18,746 nt of DNA. It comes from a phage. The DNA is taken from assembly GCA_019844455.1 (NCBI GenBank), contig GCA_019844455.1_3938.2. One strand, 5' to 3'. The position numbers and the translations under genes were made by a program. The notes below the pieces were generated by a model. It was given only the letters and a program-made list of their open reading frames with translations. It made no database searches and was not told the DNA's origin. Every line of letters begins with the position of its first letter. The first letter of the stretch is position 1. This document shows, in pieces, positions 11,510 through 15,188 of the stretch.

Positions 11510-11835
11510 TGACTGGTATCACTTCAATCATTGCCATTTTCGCGCTATATAAGGCATATAAAGCCTATAATCTAGCAAATAAGGCAATCACACAGCAGGT
11601 TAGCAATAGCCTTGTAAAAAGCTTTCTAGGGCGTCTCAGTGATGAGCAAATAAAGCGGTTAGAAATGAGCTTCAGATTCAAAGCGAAAACCTATCAGATA
11701 AGTGACATCTTCAAGGATGATTTCCAGTTAGTCGATGATTATAATTCTCTGATAAATGCTTTAAATATCAGTGACTTAAAAGACTACTACGCTGTAATTG
11801 TTCAAGAGTTGAGCAAACGAAAACAAAACTGTTGA
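11503..11835 (+). CDS. hypothetical protein with N-terminal hydrophobic segment (110 aa)
   Basis: ATG overlaps the upstream stop (ATGTTAATG); RBS agagga upstream. N-terminus GITSIIAIFALY is hydrophobic. The stop TGA (11833-11835) sits inside the TTGACA of the next module. Confidence 0.5.
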   Translation: MLMTGITSIIAIFALYKAYKAYNLANKAITQQVSNSLVKSFLGRLSDEQIKRLEMSFRFKAKTYQISDIFKDDFQLVDDYNSLINALNISDLKDYYAVIVQELSKRKQNC

Positions 11836-11924
11836 CACTGATTTTTAGATAGATTAAATTACACATCAACGGGGAGGGAACAACCTTCCCACTAAATAAA
11901 GTCCTTAAACTAGGAGATTCTAAA
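11832..11924 (+). promoter_or_regulatory. intergenic module type B, copy 1 (sigma70-like promoter, 5'-UTR hairpin, shared RBS region)
   Basis: TTGACA 11832-11837, 17-nt spacer, TAAATT 11855-11860, hairpin gggaa-caacc-ttccc (11876-11890), then actaaataaagtccttaaactaggagattctaaaATG. Confidence 0.55.
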
Positions 11925-12197
11925 ATGTATACTACTAACAATGGCCTCACTTTGAACGTCACACTACGTCACTATGTAGATGGTGTCATGCACTTTGAAG
12001 ATTTACAAGCTGAACAACATATCTTAGATTGGCAAGTCGCAGGACTCCAAAAAACTGCTACGGGATACGGTAAAAAGATTCCAACTAGTTGGAAAGTTCA
12101 CTATGAAGGACGTTTGCGCAGAATTTATCAAGATGTGCAAAGCAATAGCGCATCGAGTTACATTATAGTAAAAGGTGAAAAACTGCATTTAGTATAA
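11925..12197 (+). CDS. hypothetical protein (90 aa)
   Basis: ORF with the shared RBS region. No recognisable motif. Confidence 0.5.
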   Translation: MYTTNNGLTLNVTLRHYVDGVMHFEDLQAEQHILDWQVAGLQKTATGYGKKIPTSWKVHYEGRLRRIYQDVQSNSASSYIIVKGEKLHLV

Positions 12198-12202
12198 AGT
12201 AC

Positions 12203-12282
12203 TTTACAAGGGGCTTAAAAGTTGGTATCTTAAGCCCCAGATAAAGAGCTTTACCCCTAAATCCTAAATTGGAGATTCAAAA
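12203..12282 (+). promoter_or_regulatory. intergenic module type A, copy 5
   Basis: Near-identical to copy 3 (two substitutions that I counted over about 90 nt): taaagtactttacaaggggcttaaaagttggtatcttaagccccagataaagagctttacccctaaatcctaaattggagattcaaaaATG. Confidence 0.5.
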
Positions 12283-12687
12283 ATGGCTATTAATAATCGT
12301 GAGTTATCAATCTTAAAAGCACGTTTAACCGTTAATCGAATCAATGTTATCACGTCATCAGCACCAGACGAGACATTACACAACATTATCGGGAAGATTC
12401 AAGGTGTTATCTTAGACGTTGAGAATGTAAAAAACTCATTAGCAGACGTTGCAGCAGGTGTTACACTAGACGGCGCACAATATGAAATGATTGACATGTT
12501 AGGCAAATCAAAGGTTATGAATAAAGAGTTAGACTTAAAAATGTTTCGATTTGCCGTGAAAGTATGGCTATCTGTCGAGTATGATGCTAATTTTGCAATT
12601 GCTGATTTCTTTGCCACTTGGTTGCAACGTAACTTAACAAATCATGATTTTCGTGATATCTGTGATGCAATTTACGCAGAACTTTAA
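12283..12687 (+). CDS. hypothetical protein (134 aa)
   Basis: ORF with the shared RBS region. No recognisable motif. Confidence 0.55.
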   Translation: MAINNRELSILKARLTVNRINVITSSAPDETLHNIIGKIQGVILDVENVKNSLADVAAGVTLDGAQYEMIDMLGKSKVMNKELDLKMFRFAVKVWLSVEYDANFAIADFFATWLQRNLTNHDFRDICDAIYAEL

Positions 12688-12695
12688 AAATTTTA

Positions 12696-12787
12696 TTGAC
12701 ACTGATTTTTAGATAGACTAAATTACACATCAACGGGGAGGGAACAACCTTCCCACTAAATAAAGTCCTTAAACTAGGAGATTCAAA
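12696..12787 (+). promoter_or_regulatory. intergenic module type B, copy 2
   Basis: TTGACA 12696-12701, 17-nt spacer, TAAATT; differs from copy 1 by about two substitutions over about 90 nt. Confidence 0.55.
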
Positions 12788-13330
12788 ATGAAATGCTTTC
12801 ACGGTACTACTCAAGAAAACTTTATCAACCTGATTAATAACGGTGATAAACCATCAGGTGTATGGAATTGTTCGGATATGGACGGCAATTTTTACGTGTA
12901 CCCAGAAAATAAACTCTATGGTGATGATGAGGAAGAGATAGCATCGGAAGGTATCCAGCAAGCTCTAGGAAATGCCACTATCACGGCAGCTTTTCAGATG
13001 AAAACTCAAAATATTGTTATCTTAGAACTTGACATTCCAGAGGATGAGCTAAATGATGATTATTCTTGTGATAACATGTCAAATATAGCAAGCTTTACAG
13101 AGTACTTTGATGTAAATTGGATTAAAAAGGTCTATACAACAGAGTTCAACGCTATGTATTCACCTTTTTGTCTCCCTTCACTGGATAACCCAAATTTAAA
13201 TTATCTTGATGAAACATTGGAGCTACTTGCTAAAAGTATCCAACAATCCGACAGTATTCAGGTTTTTTGTGACATCATGGATACACTGACAGAAAACATT
13301 GTAGAGAGTGATTTAAAGGTCTTTTTCTAA
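12788..13330 (+). CDS. hypothetical strongly acidic protein (180 aa)
   Basis: ORF with the shared RBS region. Very Asp/Glu-rich with few Lys/Arg. Confidence 0.55.
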   Translation: MKCFHGTTQENFINLINNGDKPSGVWNCSDMDGNFYVYPENKLYGDDEEEIASEGIQQALGNATITAAFQMKTQNIVILELDIPEDELNDDYSCDNMSNIASFTEYFDVNWIKKVYTTEFNAMYSPFCLPSLDNPNLNYLDETLELLAKSIQQSDSIQVFCDIMDTLTENIVESDLKVFF

Positions 13331-13363
13331 AAACCTATACATTCACCTTATAAACACTGATTA

Positions 13364-13630: not shown

Positions 13631-13721
13631 ACAAGCCTGATAAAAGTCTGTAAATTACACATCAACGGGGAGGGAATGACCTTCCCCACTAAATAAAGTC
13701 CTTAAACTAGGAGATTCAAAA
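13628..13721 (+). promoter_or_regulatory. intergenic module type B, copy 3 (degenerate -35)
   Basis: TAGACA 13628-13633 (overlaps stop TAG of the upstream gene), 17-nt spacer, TAAATT 13651-13656, hairpin gggaa-tgacc-ttccc, shared RBS region. Confidence 0.45.
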
Positions 13722-14063
13722 ATGGCTTATGTAACCGTAATTACCGATAAAGCTGGCTCATCTTGGTCAACTCAGGTTAGTGATAAGATGTCGCCTATGC
13801 AGTGCCTAAAATACTTTGAGCAGTGGAACAAAGGCGAGGATGTAAGCCCCTTTCAAGTGATGCAAATCATCCATACAGATAACGAAGGGAATAAAACGAC
13901 CTTGAACAGTGAATACTACGCAAGCCGTTTTGAAACGAGAAGTAAAACAATGAAGCTTTTACGTGAATCCGGCTATTCTCATATTGCCGCGCTAATCTGG
14001 GATGACCTGCTAAAAAGCCAGCGTATCAGCTATGTAAAACCTGAAAAAATATTCATCAGTTAA
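13722..14063 (+). CDS. hypothetical protein (113 aa)
   Basis: ORF with the shared RBS region. No recognisable motif. Confidence 0.55.
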   Translation: MAYVTVITDKAGSSWSTQVSDKMSPMQCLKYFEQWNKGEDVSPFQVMQIIHTDNEGNKTTLNSEYYASRFETRSKTMKLLRESGYSHIAALIWDDLLKSQRISYVKPEKIFIS

Positions 14064-14078
14064 TCAATAACTTACAAA

Positions 14079-14124
14079 AAACTTTTAAAAAAGTGTTGAC
14101 AATACCCCTTGACATTGGTAACTT
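14079..14124 (+). promoter_or_regulatory. possible promoter region (A/T-rich block plus two TTGACA hexamers)
   Basis: aaaaaacttttaaaaaag, then TTGACA at 14096-14101 and again at 14109-14114; no convincing -10. A 5' UTR of about 140 nt follows, containing ctttatag twice. Confidence 0.3.
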
Positions 14125-14263
14125 TGTTCGAGGGGGTTTATCTAAAAGGGATTCACTTAAAAGATTCTTTATAGATAAGCTTAAAAAATTGCTTGCAATC
14201 ATCTTCCAAAAACTTTATAGTTTATCTCAAGCAATAATGCTTTCCTAAACTGGAGATTCAAAA

Positions 14264-14794
14264 ATGAACAAGTTCAAAGCTATCAACTACATTCGCTCAA
14301 ATAGTGTCATGTCTAAGCCTGTTAAGGATACCTACGAATTTCGTTGCAATGGTGAACACTTTGCTACCATCACCAAATCAAACAACGGGGCTTATTATAT
14401 CCATCGTCGTAATGTTTCTACGGTTGTAGTTTCTAACTTTATGCAAGCTGTAGCGGAACTCCTCCCGCTCTTCTTAGAAAAGTATGCCGTACAGTGTGAA
14501 AGTGTTCGTGAATGCACTAAAACAGTGTTAAACGGTTATCGTATGGCTTACGAGCGCTCTTTAAAGAATCTCAATAAATACTACAAAGCACCGGAAGGCA
14601 CTTCATCCACAGCCTACGGGGTAGGGGGCTTCAATGTCAGCCTTTACGAAGTGGAAGAAATCGAGCTTTATGACCATCGCCCAAATGGTTACGCTAAGAC
14701 ACTGGGAGAGGGGTTAATGCTGAATATCAAGAACTTAGAAAAAACTTTAAGAGAAATTGAAAAAGATATTGACGAGACAATCAAAAATCTGTAA
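14264..14794 (+). CDS. hypothetical protein (176 aa)
   Basis: ORF with the shared RBS region. No recognisable motif. Confidence 0.55.
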   Translation: MNKFKAINYIRSNSVMSKPVKDTYEFRCNGEHFATITKSNNGAYYIHRRNVSTVVVSNFMQAVAELLPLFLEKYAVQCESVRECTKTVLNGYRMAYERSLKNLNKYYKAPEGTSSTAYGVGGFNVSLYEVEEIELYDHRPNGYAKTLGEGLMLNIKNLEKTLREIEKDIDETIKNL

Positions 14795-14857
14795 ATTGTC
14801 AATCAACGGGGGGGTAACCTGCCCCACTAAACAAAATCCTAAACTGGAGTTATCAAG
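14769..14857 (+). promoter_or_regulatory. intergenic module type B, copy 4 (promoter embedded in the upstream gene 3' end)
   Basis: TTGACG 14769-14774, 17-nt spacer, TAAATT 14792-14797 (overlaps stop TAA 14792-14794), G/C hairpin, variant RBS region ctaaactggagttatcaagATG. Confidence 0.45.
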
Positions 14858-15121
14858 ATGGAAAACGTAGAATTAACCACACTATTGCAGATTGCAACTG
14901 ACAAAGAAGACGTAGCGTTGTTTCACCGTATCGAAAGTGATTTGTTCAATGGTGAAATCATTAAAGAATCTTACGAAGTTGTCGGATTCAAAGATGGTAA
15001 AGCATTTGGCTTTTTTGACCTCGACAAAAGCAAAGCGGTTACAATGTACGATGTTCTATCTTGTGAAATTCTGACAAAATACAACGAAAAAAGGCTTGCA
15101 ACCTACGCCAATATGCAGTAA
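14858..15121 (+). CDS. hypothetical protein (87 aa)
   Basis: ORF with the variant RBS region (GGAG upstream). No recognisable motif. Confidence 0.5.
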   Translation: MENVELTTLLQIATDKEDVALFHRIESDLFNGEIIKESYEVVGFKDGKAFGFFDLDKSKAVTMYDVLSCEILTKYNEKRLATYANMQ

Positions 15122-15188
15122 ATTACTAATCAACGGGGAGGGAATGACCTTCCCACTAAACAAAGTCCTAAACTGGAGAATCTAAATT
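15096..15188 (+). promoter_or_regulatory. intergenic module type B, copy 5
   Basis: TTGCAA 15096-15101, 17-nt spacer, TAAATT 15119-15124 (overlaps stop TAA 15119-15121), hairpin gggaa-tgacc-ttccc, RBS region ctaaactggagaatctaaattATG. Confidence 0.45.

What the first reader, a model, noticed from the sequence alone, without database searches (positions are those of the whole stretch)
11826..15124. Stop codons of upstream genes embedded in the promoter hexamers of downstream modules
The stop TGA at 11833-11835 lies inside TTGACA (11832-11837). TAG at 13628-13630 begins TAGACA. TAA at 14792-14794 and at 15119-15121 each begin the TAAATT -10-like hexamer, placing the inferred -35 (TTGACG at 14769, TTGCAA at 15096) inside the upstream coding sequence. 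In addition, the genes at 9765 and 10234 both end ...aaaattaacTGA, so the repeat reaches into coding sequence. The cassette junctions therefore cut into the upstream 3' ends, so an incoming module may set the C-terminus of the gene it lands behind.
Basis: seen in the sequence. Interest (0 to 1): 0.45.

Follow-up and report, generated by a model that had tools for sequence, protein, structure and literature searches.

The report
Phage gene ends overlapping downstream promoters
In a Felix O1-type phage, small early genes are separated by two families of repeated promoter-plus-hairpin cassettes, and several genes run into the next gene's promoter and stop on a stop triplet inside it, an extension of a gene-shuffling cassette system already known from T4-like phages.

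Summary
The window is a Felixounavirus (Felix O1 family). Positions 9.4-15.5 kb hold 14 small genes of unknown function separated by two families of ~90-nt cassettes: sigma-70-like promoter, G+C-rich hairpin, Shine-Dalgarno site, ATG.

In four of the five type B cassettes the upstream stop is a triplet of the -35 (TGA in TTGACA, TAG in TAGACA) or of the -10 (TAA in TAAATT). Type A cassettes start with TAA (TAAAGTAC), which many unrelated genes use as their stop.

Across 36 related genomes, C-termini do not change when the downstream gene changes. Sequence 5' of the -10 travels with the upstream gene; homology shared by all copies runs from the -10 to the ATG. The promoter half can still write the last 3-9 codons. 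The 110-aa gene ends QNC/QSV/QNS or NFS/NSS/NLS according to promoter variant. In a divergent clade two unrelated proteins carry almost the same promoter-encoded tail.

The system works like the PeSL cassettes of T4-type phages, and I found no such description for Felix O1 phages. Promoter activity is inferred, not shown.

The parts
11503..11835 (+). 110-aa ORF of unknown function (Felix O1 ORF18 homolog). Its stop TGA at 11833-11835 lies inside the -35 hexamer TTGACA.
   Evidence: phrog_4375, unknown function. The tail co-varies with the promoter variant in 29 of 29 genomes.
11832..11924 (+). Type B cassette, variant a. -35 TTGACA at 11832-11837, N17 spacer, -10 TAAATT at 11855-11860, hairpin at 11871-11890, GGAG site, then ATG at 11925.
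   Evidence: (family D2). It is 98% identical to the copy at 12696, including the rare AACAACC loop, which indicates gene conversion.
12685..12787 (+). Type B cassette, variant a, after the 134-aa ORF. The stop TAA at 12685-12687 lies 8 nt before the -35 TTGACA at 12696-12701. -10 TAAATT at 12719-12724, hairpin at 12735-12754, ATG at 12788. This is the one type B copy in the window whose promoter is fully intergenic.
13397..13630 (+). 77-aa ORF of unknown function. Its stop TAG at 13628-13630 forms the first three bases of the degenerate -35 hexamer TAGACA.
   Evidence: In the divergent clade the stop sits immediately before an intact TTGACA. In L014 a frameshift moves the stop to a TGA in the spacer.
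13628..13721 (+). Type B cassette. -35-like TAGACA at 13628-13633, N17 spacer, -10 TAAATT at 13651-13656, hairpin at 13667-13687, GGAG site, ATG at 13722.
14264..14794 (+). 176-aa ORF (Felix O1 ORF22 homolog). Its last 9 codons contain the A-tract, the -35 TTGACG at 14769-14774 and the spacer of the next promoter. Its stop TAA at 14792-14794 is the start of the -10 hexamer.
   Evidence: The C-terminus is conserved with three different downstream contexts. Si3 lost the gene by a crossover in ATCAAAA inside this coding spacer.
14769..14857 (+). Type B cassette with its promoter half embedded in coding sequence. -35 TTGACG, N17 spacer, -10 TAAATT at 14792-14797, hairpin at 14808-14825, GGAG site, ATG at 14858.
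   Evidence: (families D5 and D7).
14858..15121 (+). 87-aa ORF, present in only some relatives. Its last 9 codons contain the A-tract, the -35 TTGCAA at 15096-15101 and the spacer. Its stop TAA at 15119-15121 is the start of the -10 hexamer.
15096..15188 (+). Type B cassette with its promoter half embedded in coding sequence. -35 TTGCAA, N17 spacer, -10 TAAATT at 15119-15124, hairpin at 15135-15154, GGAG site, ATG at 15189.
   Evidence: The scan does not call it (8 of 12 matches).
9671..9764 (+). Type A cassette. Gene stop TAA at 9671-9673 followed by the cassette's TAAAGTAC. -35 TTTACA at 9682-9687, hairpin at 9689-9717 with the -10 TATCTT at 9705-9710 in its loop and 3' arm, GGAG site, ATG at 9765.
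   Evidence: (family D1).
10134..10233 (+). Type A cassette, including the shared AAAATTAAC-TGA that forms the last codons of the 126-aa ORF. -35 TTTACA at 10154-10159, -10 TAAAGT at 10177-10182, hairpin at 10161-10189, ATG at 10234.
10513..10612 (+). Type A cassette, including the shared AAAATTAAC-TGA that forms the last codons of the 96-aa ORF. -35 TTTACA at 10533-10538, -10 TATCTT at 10556-10561, hairpin at 10540-10568, ATG at 10613.
   Evidence: (91% identical to the copy at 10134-10236).
11123..11212 (+). Type A cassette, a diverged copy. Stop TAA at 11123-11125, -35 TTTACA at 11135-11140, -10 TAAGAT at 11158-11163, hairpin GGGGCTATC...GATAGCCCC, ATG at 11213.
12195..12282 (+). Type A cassette whose first three bases, the TAA of TAAAGTAC at 12195-12197, are the stop of the 90-aa ORF 11925-12197. 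-35 TTTACA at 12203-12208, -10 TATCTT at 12226-12231, ATG at 12283.
   Evidence: (the same arrangement in all 9 genomes first compared).
3331..3412 (+). Type A-like cassette between rIIA and rIIB. The rIIA stop is the TAA of TAAAGTGT at 3331-3333. -35 TTGACA at 3339-3344, followed by hairpin GGGGCTTCAAAGCCCC.
   Evidence: (family D6). The rIIA and rIIB identities rest on the Felix O1 genome layout (PMC3185647) and were not tested here.
9389..9466 (+). First promoter of the gene row. TTGACA, N17 spacer, TACTAT, then hairpin GGGCAAGCAAGCCC, the CTAAACTGGAG site and ATG at 9467. It is a type B relative.
   Evidence: The same hairpin variant occurs in L027 and L029.

Best explanation
The region is the hyperplastic early-gene row of a Felixounavirus. 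Nearly every small gene is followed by a composite regulatory cassette of about 90 nt.

**Cassette anatomy.** Each cassette has an A-rich tract, a -35, a 17-nt spacer, a -10, a G+C-rich hairpin, the site CTAAACTGGAG, and then ATG. There are two sequence families.
- Type B has the hairpin just after the -10, so it would sit at the 5' end of the new transcript.

**Shown here.**
- Copies within and between genomes recombine and convert one another.
- Everything not under protein-coding constraint is homogenised. In type B the homology shared by all copies runs from the -10 to the ATG. In type A it runs from TAAAGTAC to the ATG.
- Gene-specific sequence therefore begins exactly at each upstream stop codon.
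- The genes are packed so tightly that several reading frames continue through the A-tract, the -35 and the spacer of the next promoter. They end on the first in-frame stop. The AT-rich hexamers supply it: TGA in TTGACA, TAG in TAGACA, TAA in TAAATT or TAAAGTAC.
- The promoter half thus stays linked to the upstream gene and encodes its last 3-9 residues.
- Ordinary crossovers, 3' of the -10, swap downstream genes without touching that C-terminus.
- Rarer events inside the promoter half do rewrite the tail. These include crossover or conversion between promoter variants a and b, loss of a stop codon, and a frameshift. The promoter always re-closes the frame within about 25 nt.

**Inferred, not shown.**
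- The hexamers fire with host sigma-70 RNA polymerase.
- The hairpins attenuate read-through or stabilise transcripts.
- Exchange goes through the phage's general homologous recombination machinery.
For: **Identity and context.**
- Megablast hits are Felixounavirus genomes. The best is 96.9% identical over 71% of the query.
- All 10 small proteins scanned against PHROGs match families of unknown function, and the 9 scanned against Pfam match no family; both libraries together cover 13 of the 14, with ORF 11213-11509 scanned against PHROGs only and ORF 9467-9673 likewise.

**Anatomy.**
- The repeat families are defined and the promoter-like sites.
- Hairpins average about -12 kcal/mol in 97% (type B) and 88% (type A) of distinct copies. 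Compensatory changes occur, for example GGTGCTTA...TAAGCACC and GGGGCTAT...ATAGCCCC.
- T, A and T at positions 1, 2 and 6 of the type A -10 are conserved inside the hairpin loop and 3' arm.

**The promoter is complete even inside coding sequence.**
- An A-tract plus a -35 at N17 has P = 0.0017 per random coding site, yet 5 of 5 type B cassettes in the window have it.
- TTGACG or TTGCAA and the -10 persist in divergent orthologs while the residues between them vary.

**Modular shuffling.**
- The 36 genomes are collinear, with single-gene presence or absence between cassettes and one order flip, x1-x5 against x5-x1.

**Linkage.**
- Identity curves place the boundary of universal homology at the -10 (type B) and at TAAAGTAC (type A). 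Linkage to the downstream gene starts at the ATG.

**Crossover and conversion.**
- The Si3 joint lies in ATCAAAA, between an intergenic spacer and the spacer inside the 176-aa gene.
- ESCO45 has a chimeric a/b spacer.
- Private variants are shared by both cassette copies of one genome: the AACAACC loop in the window, TTTTAAAAGCAAG in L016 and L028.
- All four a/b combinations occur at the two sites.

**Tail rewriting.**
- Variant a or b matches tail QNC/QSV/QNS or NFS/NSS/NLS in 29 of 29 genomes, interspersed on gene-body clustering. L028 (variant b) has L002 (variant a) as its nearest neighbour, at 2.9% distance.
- L030 has TAG immediately before CTTGCAA. L035, L033 and L032 have GAG there and read on to the -10 TAA.
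- The same 49-nt promoter, 92% identical, ends an unrelated 46-aa gene with nearly the same tail.

**Frames.**
- In variant a all three frames close within 21 nt of the start of the -35.
- 11 of 15 gene families upstream of type A cassettes are in frame with the cassette's TAA (binomial P = 0.0018).

**Timing.**
- Felix O1 ORFs 16, 20, 21 and 22 are maximally expressed 5 min after infection (PMC3185647).
Against: - No transcription start data exist for any Felixounavirus in the searchable literature. Promoter use is therefore inferred from sequence only.
- TAAATT matches TATAAT at only 4 of 6 positions, and TTGCAA matches TTGACA at only 4 of 6.
- The test of synonymous-site conservation in the embedded -35 and A-tract was weak: 0.92 against 0.85 and 1.00 against 0.83, on few distinct sequences.
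- The hairpins have no T-run, and none is called terminator-like. Their role is unknown.
- Many of the 36 genomes are close relatives, so instance counts overstate the number of independent events.
- Linkage of the 5' half to the upstream gene is partly a necessary outcome of any recombination between direct repeats.
Confidence: 0.7

Rival explanations
1. Each module is 'promoter cassette plus downstream gene'. When a module lands, its junction cuts into the 3' end of the resident upstream gene, so the incoming module dictates that gene's C-terminus.
For: - Cassette homology reaches a few codons into coding sequence.
- Promoter-encoded tails exist and can be shared by unrelated genes.
- The tail of the 110-aa gene changes with the promoter variant.
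Against: - C-termini are constant across different downstream neighbours for seven gene families.
- The -35, the spacer and positions +6 to +9 segregate with the upstream gene, not the downstream one.
- x1 and x5 each keep their own 3' type A cassette in either order.
- The a/b swap at the 110-aa gene happens with the same downstream gene on both sides.
Confidence: 0.12
2. Compaction and chance only. The repeats are RNA-level elements (hairpin plus ribosome-binding site). The hexamers inside coding sequence are not promoters. The row is transcribed by read-through from a few true promoters. Stops fall in 'hexamers' simply because AT-rich sequence is full of stop triplets.
For: - Two of the three frames of a TTGACA...TAAATT promoter end in a hexamer by construction.
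- The hexamers are imperfect matches to consensus.
- The Felix O1 authors predicted no promoters in this row (PMC3185647).
- The synonymous-site test was weak.
Against: - The A-tract plus a -35 at exactly N17 has P = 0.0017 per site, yet it is present in 5 of 5 window cassettes. It is retained in divergent orthologs in which the encoded residues change.
- The most important -10 positions (T1, A2, T6) are conserved inside the type A hairpin loop and 3' arm.
- Near-identical architecture was shown to be promoter-active in T4-type PeSLs (PMC2839356).
Confidence: 0.13
3. The hairpins are targets of a site-specific, integron-like or nuclease-driven cassette exchange system, rather than substrates of general homologous recombination.
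For: - The unit 'ORF plus a 3' structured repeat' recalls integron cassettes, which are an ORF plus attC.
- The GGGG...CCCC hairpins are conserved.
- Arbiol et al. speculated about a hairpin-binding protein (PMC2839356).
Against: - Crossover points lie at several different places. They fall in ATCAAAA in the spacer (Si3), in GGTTTTTA in the spacer (ESCO45), in the A-tract/TTGA region (the a/b swaps) and in the ribosome-binding-site region (the x7 insertion).
- Conversion tracts of variable length fit homology-driven exchange.
- No recombinase was sought or seen in the window.
Confidence: 0.05

Closest known systems
PeSL (promoter-early stem-loop) cassettes of T4-type phages (Arbiol et al. 2010, PMC2839356; Comeau et al. 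2014, PMC4122927)
   Same: - Short repeated intergenic motifs made of a sigma-70-like promoter, a GGGG...CCCC stem-loop and a Shine-Dalgarno site with a start codon.
[quoted passage not shown] Both arrangements are seen here.
- The upstream gene's stop codon is counted as the 5' part of the motif.
- The motifs are concentrated among ORFans in hyperplastic regions.
- Indels and replacements between close relatives are bounded by the motifs, with chimeric motifs at the joints.
   Different: - The host phage is a Felixounavirus, not a T4-type phage.
- There are two sharply conserved sequence families.
- Stops lie inside the -35 or -10 hexamers rather than in the AT-rich tract upstream. For some genes the whole promoter half is coding and writes the C-terminal tail.
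- Promoter activity, terminator activity and mini-circles were shown for PeSLs but not tested here.
Direct repeats listed in the Felix O1 genome paper (Whichard et al. 2010, PMC3185647)
   Same: These are the same sequences. The 57-bp repeat CTTTACATGGGGCTTAAAAGTCTGTAAAGTAAGCCCCAGATAAAGAGCTTTACCACT, between genes 15/16 and 19/20, is type A. The 39-bp repeat TTGACACTGGTTTTTAGATAGATTAAATTACACATCAAC, between genes 18/19 and 20/21, is type B variant a.
   Different: They were reported only as direct repeats. No promoter, hairpin, recombination role or overlap with stop codons was proposed. The paper states that secondary promoters in this transcription unit are unknown.
Promoters overlapping upstream coding sequence in compact phage genomes (for example the remark on UAB_Phi20 in PMC4837284)
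   Same: Genome compaction places promoter hexamers inside or against the preceding gene.
   Different: Here the overlap involves a repeated, recombining cassette. The same promoter can therefore be intergenic in one genome and C-terminal coding sequence in another, and it can give the same tail to unrelated proteins.
Integron gene cassettes (ORF plus 3' attC); an analogy drawn from general knowledge
   Same: The exchangeable unit is an ORF with a structured repeat at its 3' end. Arrays of ORFans vary by whole-cassette gain and loss.
   Different: No integrase or attI is evident. Crossover points are scattered, as expected for homologous or microhomology recombination. The repeat here is a promoter.

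Membership tests
PeSL regulatory cassette | Sigma-70-like -35 / about N17 / -10 promoter within the motif | tested here: met
   Sequence level only. The scan of the 5 type B sites and all 5 type A sites of the gene row. An A-tract plus a -35 at N17 has P = 0.0017 per random coding site and is present in 5 of 5 type B cassettes.
PeSL regulatory cassette | Stable G+C-rich stem-loop overlapping or adjoining the promoter | tested here: met
   Mean dG is about -12 kcal/mol over 77 distinct type B and 66 distinct type A copies, with compensatory substitutions.
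PeSL regulatory cassette | Shine-Dalgarno site and start codon at the 3' end, with the stop of the upstream gene at the 5' end | tested here: met
   CTAAACTGGAG followed by 7-8 nt and ATG in all copies. The stop lies at or inside the 5' part, shifted into the hexamers compared with the published PeSL figure legend.
PeSL regulatory cassette | Located between ORFans in a hyperplastic region, with indels and replacements between relatives bounded by the motif | tested here: met
   Gene-order table of 36 genomes; no known function for the 13 of 14 small genes scanned across PHROGs and Pfam together; chimeric joints.
PeSL regulatory cassette | Demonstrated promoter and terminator activity, and excised mini-circles | not testable with these tools
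   This needs reporter fusions, 5'-end mapping and inverse PCR on infected cells.
PeSL regulatory cassette | Resides in a T4-type myovirus, as the family was defined | tested here: not met
   The window and all relatives are Felixounavirus, subfamily Ounavirinae. The multi-copy matches to the type B core in IMG/VR are all in Felix O1-like contigs, nearly all 80-94 kb and the rest shorter partial contigs of 51-73 kb.
Intrinsic (rho-independent) terminator | G+C-rich hairpin followed directly by a T-run | tested here: not met
   None of the cassette hairpins is called terminator-like. The hairpins are followed by ACTAAATAAAG or AGATAAAGAG.
Integron-type gene cassette system | Exchange at one fixed site within the structured repeat | tested here: not met
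   Joints occur at four or more different positions in the cassette.
Known RNA families (Rfam) | Match above the gathering score | tested here: not met
   Only 4 sub-threshold matches, with E-values 0.39-0.69, and none corresponds to a cassette element.

The most novel reading that the evidence does not exclude
The promoter half of the cassette is a portable dual-coding unit. The same 25-50 nt acts as UP-like tract, -35, spacer and -10 for the next gene, and also as the C-terminal peptide of whatever gene lies in frame before it. Unrelated proteins share the pattern (E/K)-K-x-(L/I)-(D/A)-x6-stop. Recombination among promoter variants then diversifies protein tails and expression signals in one step. 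ORF-plus-3'-promoter units may move as circles between cassettes, an integrase-free gene-cassette system in a second family of virulent phages.
Probability: 0.25. Interest if true: 0.55.

Novelty: new member of a known kind. Interest (0 to 1): 0.4.

Why it matters
- It extends PeSL-type promoter and stem-loop cassettes, and the modular shuffling of early ORFans they allow, from T4-type phages to the Felix O1 group. That group is widely used for Salmonella and E. coli typing and biocontrol.
- It gives a function to repeats that have been listed without interpretation since 2010.
- It offers concrete promoter candidates for a transcription unit whose promoters were reported as unknown.
- It documents a clean case of dual coding. 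A promoter that is intergenic in one genome encodes the C-terminal tail of a protein in another, and gene conversion between promoter copies rewrites protein ends.
- It has practical value. It flags systematic start-codon mis-annotations, and it shows where engineered inserts could be placed without disturbing neighbouring genes.

Tried and rejected
- **Paralogy.** I asked whether the 126-aa and 96-aa genes are paralogs, which would explain their shared AAAATTAACTGA ending. BLASTP finds no similarity, so this is rejected.
- **Known RNA families.** An Rfam search of 8.9-17.2 kb gave only sub-threshold noise.
- **Protein function.** PHROGs and Pfam scans of the small genes returned only 'unknown function' or nothing.
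- **Synonymous-site test.** Conservation of the embedded -35 and A-tract is in the expected direction, but the sample is too small to be convincing.
- **Identity curves anchored on the ATG.** One-base indels in the ribosome-binding-site region blur them. They show only that linkage to the downstream gene starts at the ATG.
- **Transcription start data.** Literature searches for Felix O1 or Felixounavirus transcription start or transcriptome data, and for any PeSL-type description in this genus, found nothing.
- **Promoter-terminator coupling preprint.** A 2026 bioRxiv preprint on this topic was listed but could not be opened.
- **Frame closure as a special property.** Closure of all three frames by the cassette is not special, because AT-rich sequence of this length closes frames by chance.
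- **Alternative type A promoter.** A promoter downstream of the type A hairpin (TTTACC...AGATTC) is rejected because it has no -10-like hexamer.

Full report
**1. What the window is**

Megablast of 9300-15500 finds 258 phage records. They are overwhelmingly Felix O1-like phages: 14 are named Felixounavirus outright and nearly all the rest are Escherichia, Salmonella, Shigella, Citrobacter or Enterobacteria phages. The best is Escherichia phage vB_EcoM-Ro111lw, at 96.9% identity over 71% of the query. Spacing of cassette matches suggests the window comes from one of two IMG/VR contigs of sample 3300045988.

Positions 9.4-15.5 kb hold 14 small + strand ORFs of 68-180 aa. Scanned against PHROGs, 10 of the 14 match only families of unknown function; scanned against Pfam, 9 match nothing, and the two libraries together cover 13 of them. 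The neighbouring 261-aa gene has a Macro domain. In Felix O1 this is the ORF14-23 stretch. It is bounded by terminators t13 and t23, and its ORFs 16, 20, 21 and 22 peak 5 min after infection (PMC3185647).

**2. Checking the observation**

- TGA at 11833-11835 lies inside TTGACA at 11832-11837.
- TAG at 13628-13630 opens TAGACA.
- TAA at 14792-14794 and TAA at 15119-15121 each open TAAATT. TTGACG at 14769 and TTGCAA at 15096 lie 17 nt upstream, inside the coding sequence.
- The ORFs ending at 10145 and 10524 both end AAAATTAACTGA.

The stops are true ORF ends.

A consensus scan independently calls promoter-like sites at 11832, 12696, 13628 and 14769 and at the five type A sites. It finds 34 sites against 18.2 +/- 3.6 in shuffles.

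I built a null from the window's own coding sequence. A -35-like hexamer (T1, G3, at least 4 of 6 matches) exactly 17 nt upstream, together with an A4 tract just before it, occurs at 0.17% of positions. It occurs at none of 226 internal TAnnnT sites. All five type B cassettes have both features. The embedded -35 elements are therefore not chance.

**3. Anatomy**

Two repeat families separate the genes.

- **Type B** has copies at 11832, 12696, 13628, 14769 and 15096, with a relative at 9389. Its order is A-tract, TTGACA-like hexamer, N17, TAAATT, about 10 nt, hairpin GGGGAGGGAA...CCTTCCCC, ACTAAATAAAGTCCTTAAACTAGGAGATTCAAAA, ATG.
- **Type A** has copies at 9674, 10146, 10525, 11126 and 12195, with a relative after rIIA at 3331. 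Its order is TAAAGTAC, TTTACA, hairpin GGGGCTTAA...TTAAGCCCC, AGATAAAGAGCTTTACC...CTAAACTGGAGATTCAAAA, ATG. The loop and 3' arm of the hairpin carry a TAnnnT -10 at N17.

Hairpins fold at about -12 to -16 kcal/mol in nearly all of 143 distinct copies from 36 genomes. They show compensatory changes. None has a T-run and none is called terminator-like. No Rfam family matches.

**4. Comparative sample**

I fetched the homologous region from 8 GenBank phages and 27 IMG/VR contigs. I clustered their ORFs. Gene order is collinear, but almost every small gene is present in some genomes and absent in others. Extra genes (x1, x5, x7, x9, x10, x25, x29, x30 and others) appear between cassettes. x1 and x5 occur in both orders. 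This is classic modular shuffling at the cassettes.

**5. Where the stops fall**

Stop positions in the 36 genomes are as follows.

| Cassette type | Stop position | Copies |
|---|---|---|
| Type B (134 with an assigned upstream ORF) | TAA of the -10 | 41 |
| Type B | TGA inside TTGACA or TTGATT | 29 |
| Type B | TAG of TAGACA | 25 |
| Type B | Mostly 10-12 nt before the -35 | remainder |
| Type A (172 with an assigned upstream ORF) | TAA of TAAAGTAC | 80 |
| Type A | Own stop immediately followed in frame by that TAA | 45 |

Of the 15 gene families upstream of type A cassettes, 11 are in frame with the cassette's TAA (binomial P = 0.0018).

These counts reflect about 6 independent families for type B and 15 for type A, not hundreds of independent events. 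Once a frame enters the promoter, one frame ends at the TGA of the -35 and another at the TAA of the -10. In variant a the third ends at a TAG in the spacer. The overlap of stop and hexamer is thus a consequence. The real phenomenon is that genes run into the next promoter.

**6.

The C-terminus does not follow the downstream gene.
- The 176-aa gene ends ...DIDETIKNL-TAA|ATT whether followed by the 87-aa gene, by the 82-aa gene or by nothing.
- The 110-aa gene keeps its end whether followed by the 90-aa gene or by x7.
- The same holds for the 134-, 77-, 126-, 96- and 68-aa genes.

Pairwise identity curves support this. Cassette pairs with the same upstream but a different downstream gene are as similar as fully matched pairs everywhere 5' of the -10, and at positions +6 to +9. 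Pairs with a different upstream but the same downstream gene are no more alike there than unrelated pairs. From the -10 (type B) or from TAAAGTAC (type A) to the ATG, all classes are equally alike. Linkage to the downstream gene begins at the ATG.

So the promoter half is physically linked to the upstream gene. Consistent with this, x1 and x5 each keep their own 3' type A cassette in either order. Part of this linkage is the necessary outcome of recombination between direct repeats. Its informative content is where the shared homology starts.

**7. Cassette sequence nevertheless writes C-termini**

(a) *Promoter variants and the 110-aa gene.* The promoter after this gene exists as variant a (TTGACACTG...GATAGATTAAATTACAC) or variant b (TTGATTTTGG...AAAACAAGTAAATTACTAATC). 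The protein ends KRK-QNC/QSV/QNS with variant a and KRK-NFS/NSS/NLS with variant b, in 29 of 29 genomes.
- The same b sequence, including AAATTTTTCTTGA, is intergenic after the 134-aa gene.
- All four a/b combinations occur at the two sites.
- ESCO45 has a chimeric a/b spacer.
- Both copies within one genome share private variants: the AACAACC loop in the window, TTTTAAAAGCAAG in L016 and L028.
- The variants are interspersed on clustering of the gene body. L028 (variant b) is 2.9% from Felix O1 (variant a).
- This pattern indicates conversion or crossover whose tract reaches into the last codons.

(b) *Stop loss in the divergent clade.* In L030 the ortholog of the 110-aa gene ends ...KRKK-TAG immediately before CTTGCAA. 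L035, L033 and L032 have GAG instead. They read through the -35 and spacer to the TAA of the -10, which adds ELAMQNQNK.

(c) *One promoter, two unrelated proteins.* The same 49-nt promoter, 92% identical, ends an unrelated 46-aa hydrophobic ORF (x29, with a canonical ribosome-binding site) with LLAMQNQNK*. In the main clade the homologous promoter is purely intergenic, upstream of the 176-aa gene.

(d) *Frameshift.* In L014 a 1-nt deletion shifts the 77-aa gene into another frame, and it ends at a TGA in the spacer.

(e) *Deletion joint in Si3.* Si3 lost the 176-aa gene through a crossover in ATCAAAA. The exchange joined the spacer of the upstream promoter with the spacer that encodes I-K inside the gene.

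(f) *A shared imprint.* The A-tract before the -35 is translated as (E/K)-K in unrelated proteins, at a fixed distance from the stop: IEKDIDETIKNL*, NEKRLATYANMQ*, DKKLLAMQNQNK*, IEKD*, KRKQNC*.

**8. Mechanism**

The best-supported picture is a PeSL-like system. Repeated promoter, hairpin and ribosome-binding-site cassettes drive each early ORFan and provide homology for gain, loss and reordering of genes. Concerted evolution homogenises everything that is not coding, so gene-specific sequence starts at each stop codon. Tight packing lets reading frames extend through the promoter of the next gene, where AT-rich hexamers supply the stop.

Crossovers 3' of the -10 exchange downstream genes without touching the upstream protein. 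Rarer events within the promoter half rewrite the last 3-9 residues.

- **Shown:** the anatomy, non-random promoter features, linkage pattern, joints, conversion signatures and tail changes.
- **Inferred:** promoter firing by host sigma-70 polymerase, the role of the hairpins, and the recombination machinery. The type B hairpin would lie a few nucleotides from the 5' end of the new transcript. That position is known in general to stabilise mRNA. This is my own knowledge and was not tested.

**9. Comparison with what is known**

PeSLs of T4-type phages share almost every sequence-level feature. Both hairpin positions occur in them, and the upstream stop is counted as part of the motif (PMC2839356; PMC4122927). 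The family was defined in T4-type phages, and its promoter, terminator and mini-circle activities were shown experimentally. Here the host phage differs and those activities are untested. I therefore say the system works like a PeSL, and I call it a new member of that kind rather than a proven member of the family.

The Felix O1 genome paper listed these very repeats (57 bp and 39 bp) only as direct repeats. It predicted no promoters in this row and stated that secondary promoters were unknown. I found no paper describing PeSL-type cassettes or transcription starts in Felixounavirus.

**10. Verdict**

Cassette sequence does reach into and sometimes sets C-termini, but the promoter half belongs to the upstream gene, and the arrival of a downstream gene is not what changes the tail.
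- Novelty is modest: a known kind of system in a new phage group, with a clear dual-coding twist.
- Interest: 0.4.

Noticed in passing
window 9034-9226: There are four direct repeats of about 35 nt, with the core TCATTTTnnnAnnGTGCAGGTAG (families D11 and D18). They lie in the gap between the Macro-domain gene and the first promoter of the gene row at 9389. They could be binding sites for a regulator or iterons.
   Followed up: no
window 15440-17150: A stretch of about 1.7 kb has no convincing ORF and is full of short direct repeats: CTTGTTA, TATAAAG, TTAAGAA (families D12, D13, D15, D17 and D19). It lies where the + strand and - strand transcription units converge. Several GenBank relatives are linearised within or near the homologous region (SPJ41, BPS17W1 and Ro111lw). 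It may hold the physical genome ends, terminal repeats or an origin.
   Followed up: no
L002 2484-2801 (Felix O1 ORF19); L005 6241-6627 and 6804-7379; L003 6855-7430: The loop of many type B hairpins reads GGGAATGACC, and its ATG is in frame with the downstream gene. Several GenBank annotations start there. This adds 15 residues with no ribosome-binding site: 105 aa instead of 90, 128 instead of 113, and 191 instead of 176. These are probable start-codon mis-annotations.
   Followed up: partly
window 14193-14263: The cassette upstream of the 176-aa gene differs from that of the closest relative. The window has TTGCAA-N17-TATAGT and no hairpin. Ro111lw and Felix O1 have TAAATT plus the usual hairpin at the same place. 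The window's version resembles the hairpin-less promoter upstream of x29 in L035. The 3' half of this cassette has been replaced.
   Followed up: partly
window 14064-14192: A leader conserved in all relatives carries two overlapping TTGACA hexamers (GTGTTGACAATACCCCTTGACATTGG) followed by TTCGAGGGGGTTTATC. It is the longest non-coding gap in the row, at 200 nt. Its role is unknown.
   Followed up: no
L012 and L020 versus L014, L022 and L024 (between the 134-aa and 180-aa genes): Two accessory genes, x1 and x5, occur in both orders. Each keeps a type A cassette at its 3' end. This is the pattern expected if ORF-plus-3'-cassette units are excised and reinserted.
   Followed up: partly
window 11503-11509: The 98-aa and 110-aa genes overlap as ATGTTAA: the start at 11503 lies inside the end of the previous gene. 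They are the only neighbours in the row without a cassette, which suggests translational coupling. ESCO45 lacks the 98-aa gene and has only a 16-nt ribosome-binding-site spacer there.
   Followed up: no
window 3331-3412: The conserved rIIA gene (967-3333) also ends on the TAA of a type A-like cassette (TAAAGTGT-TTGACA-GGGGCTTCAAAGCCCC) ahead of rIIB. The cassettes are therefore not confined to the ORFan row.
   Followed up: partly
L035 7882-8022; L030 7151-7291: There is a 46-aa hydrophobic, membrane-like ORF (MLDIIKNPILCGMIVSVVLPLAVLIIGEISDK...). It has a canonical cassette ribosome-binding site, is present only in the divergent clade, and is inserted in the leader before the 176-aa gene.
   Followed up: partly
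window 13331-13396: The gap between the 180-aa and 77-aa genes has no cassette. It holds a different hairpin (CCCCTTACAGGGG followed by CTTTTAG) and a weak ribosome-binding site. It is conserved in relatives.
   Followed up: no
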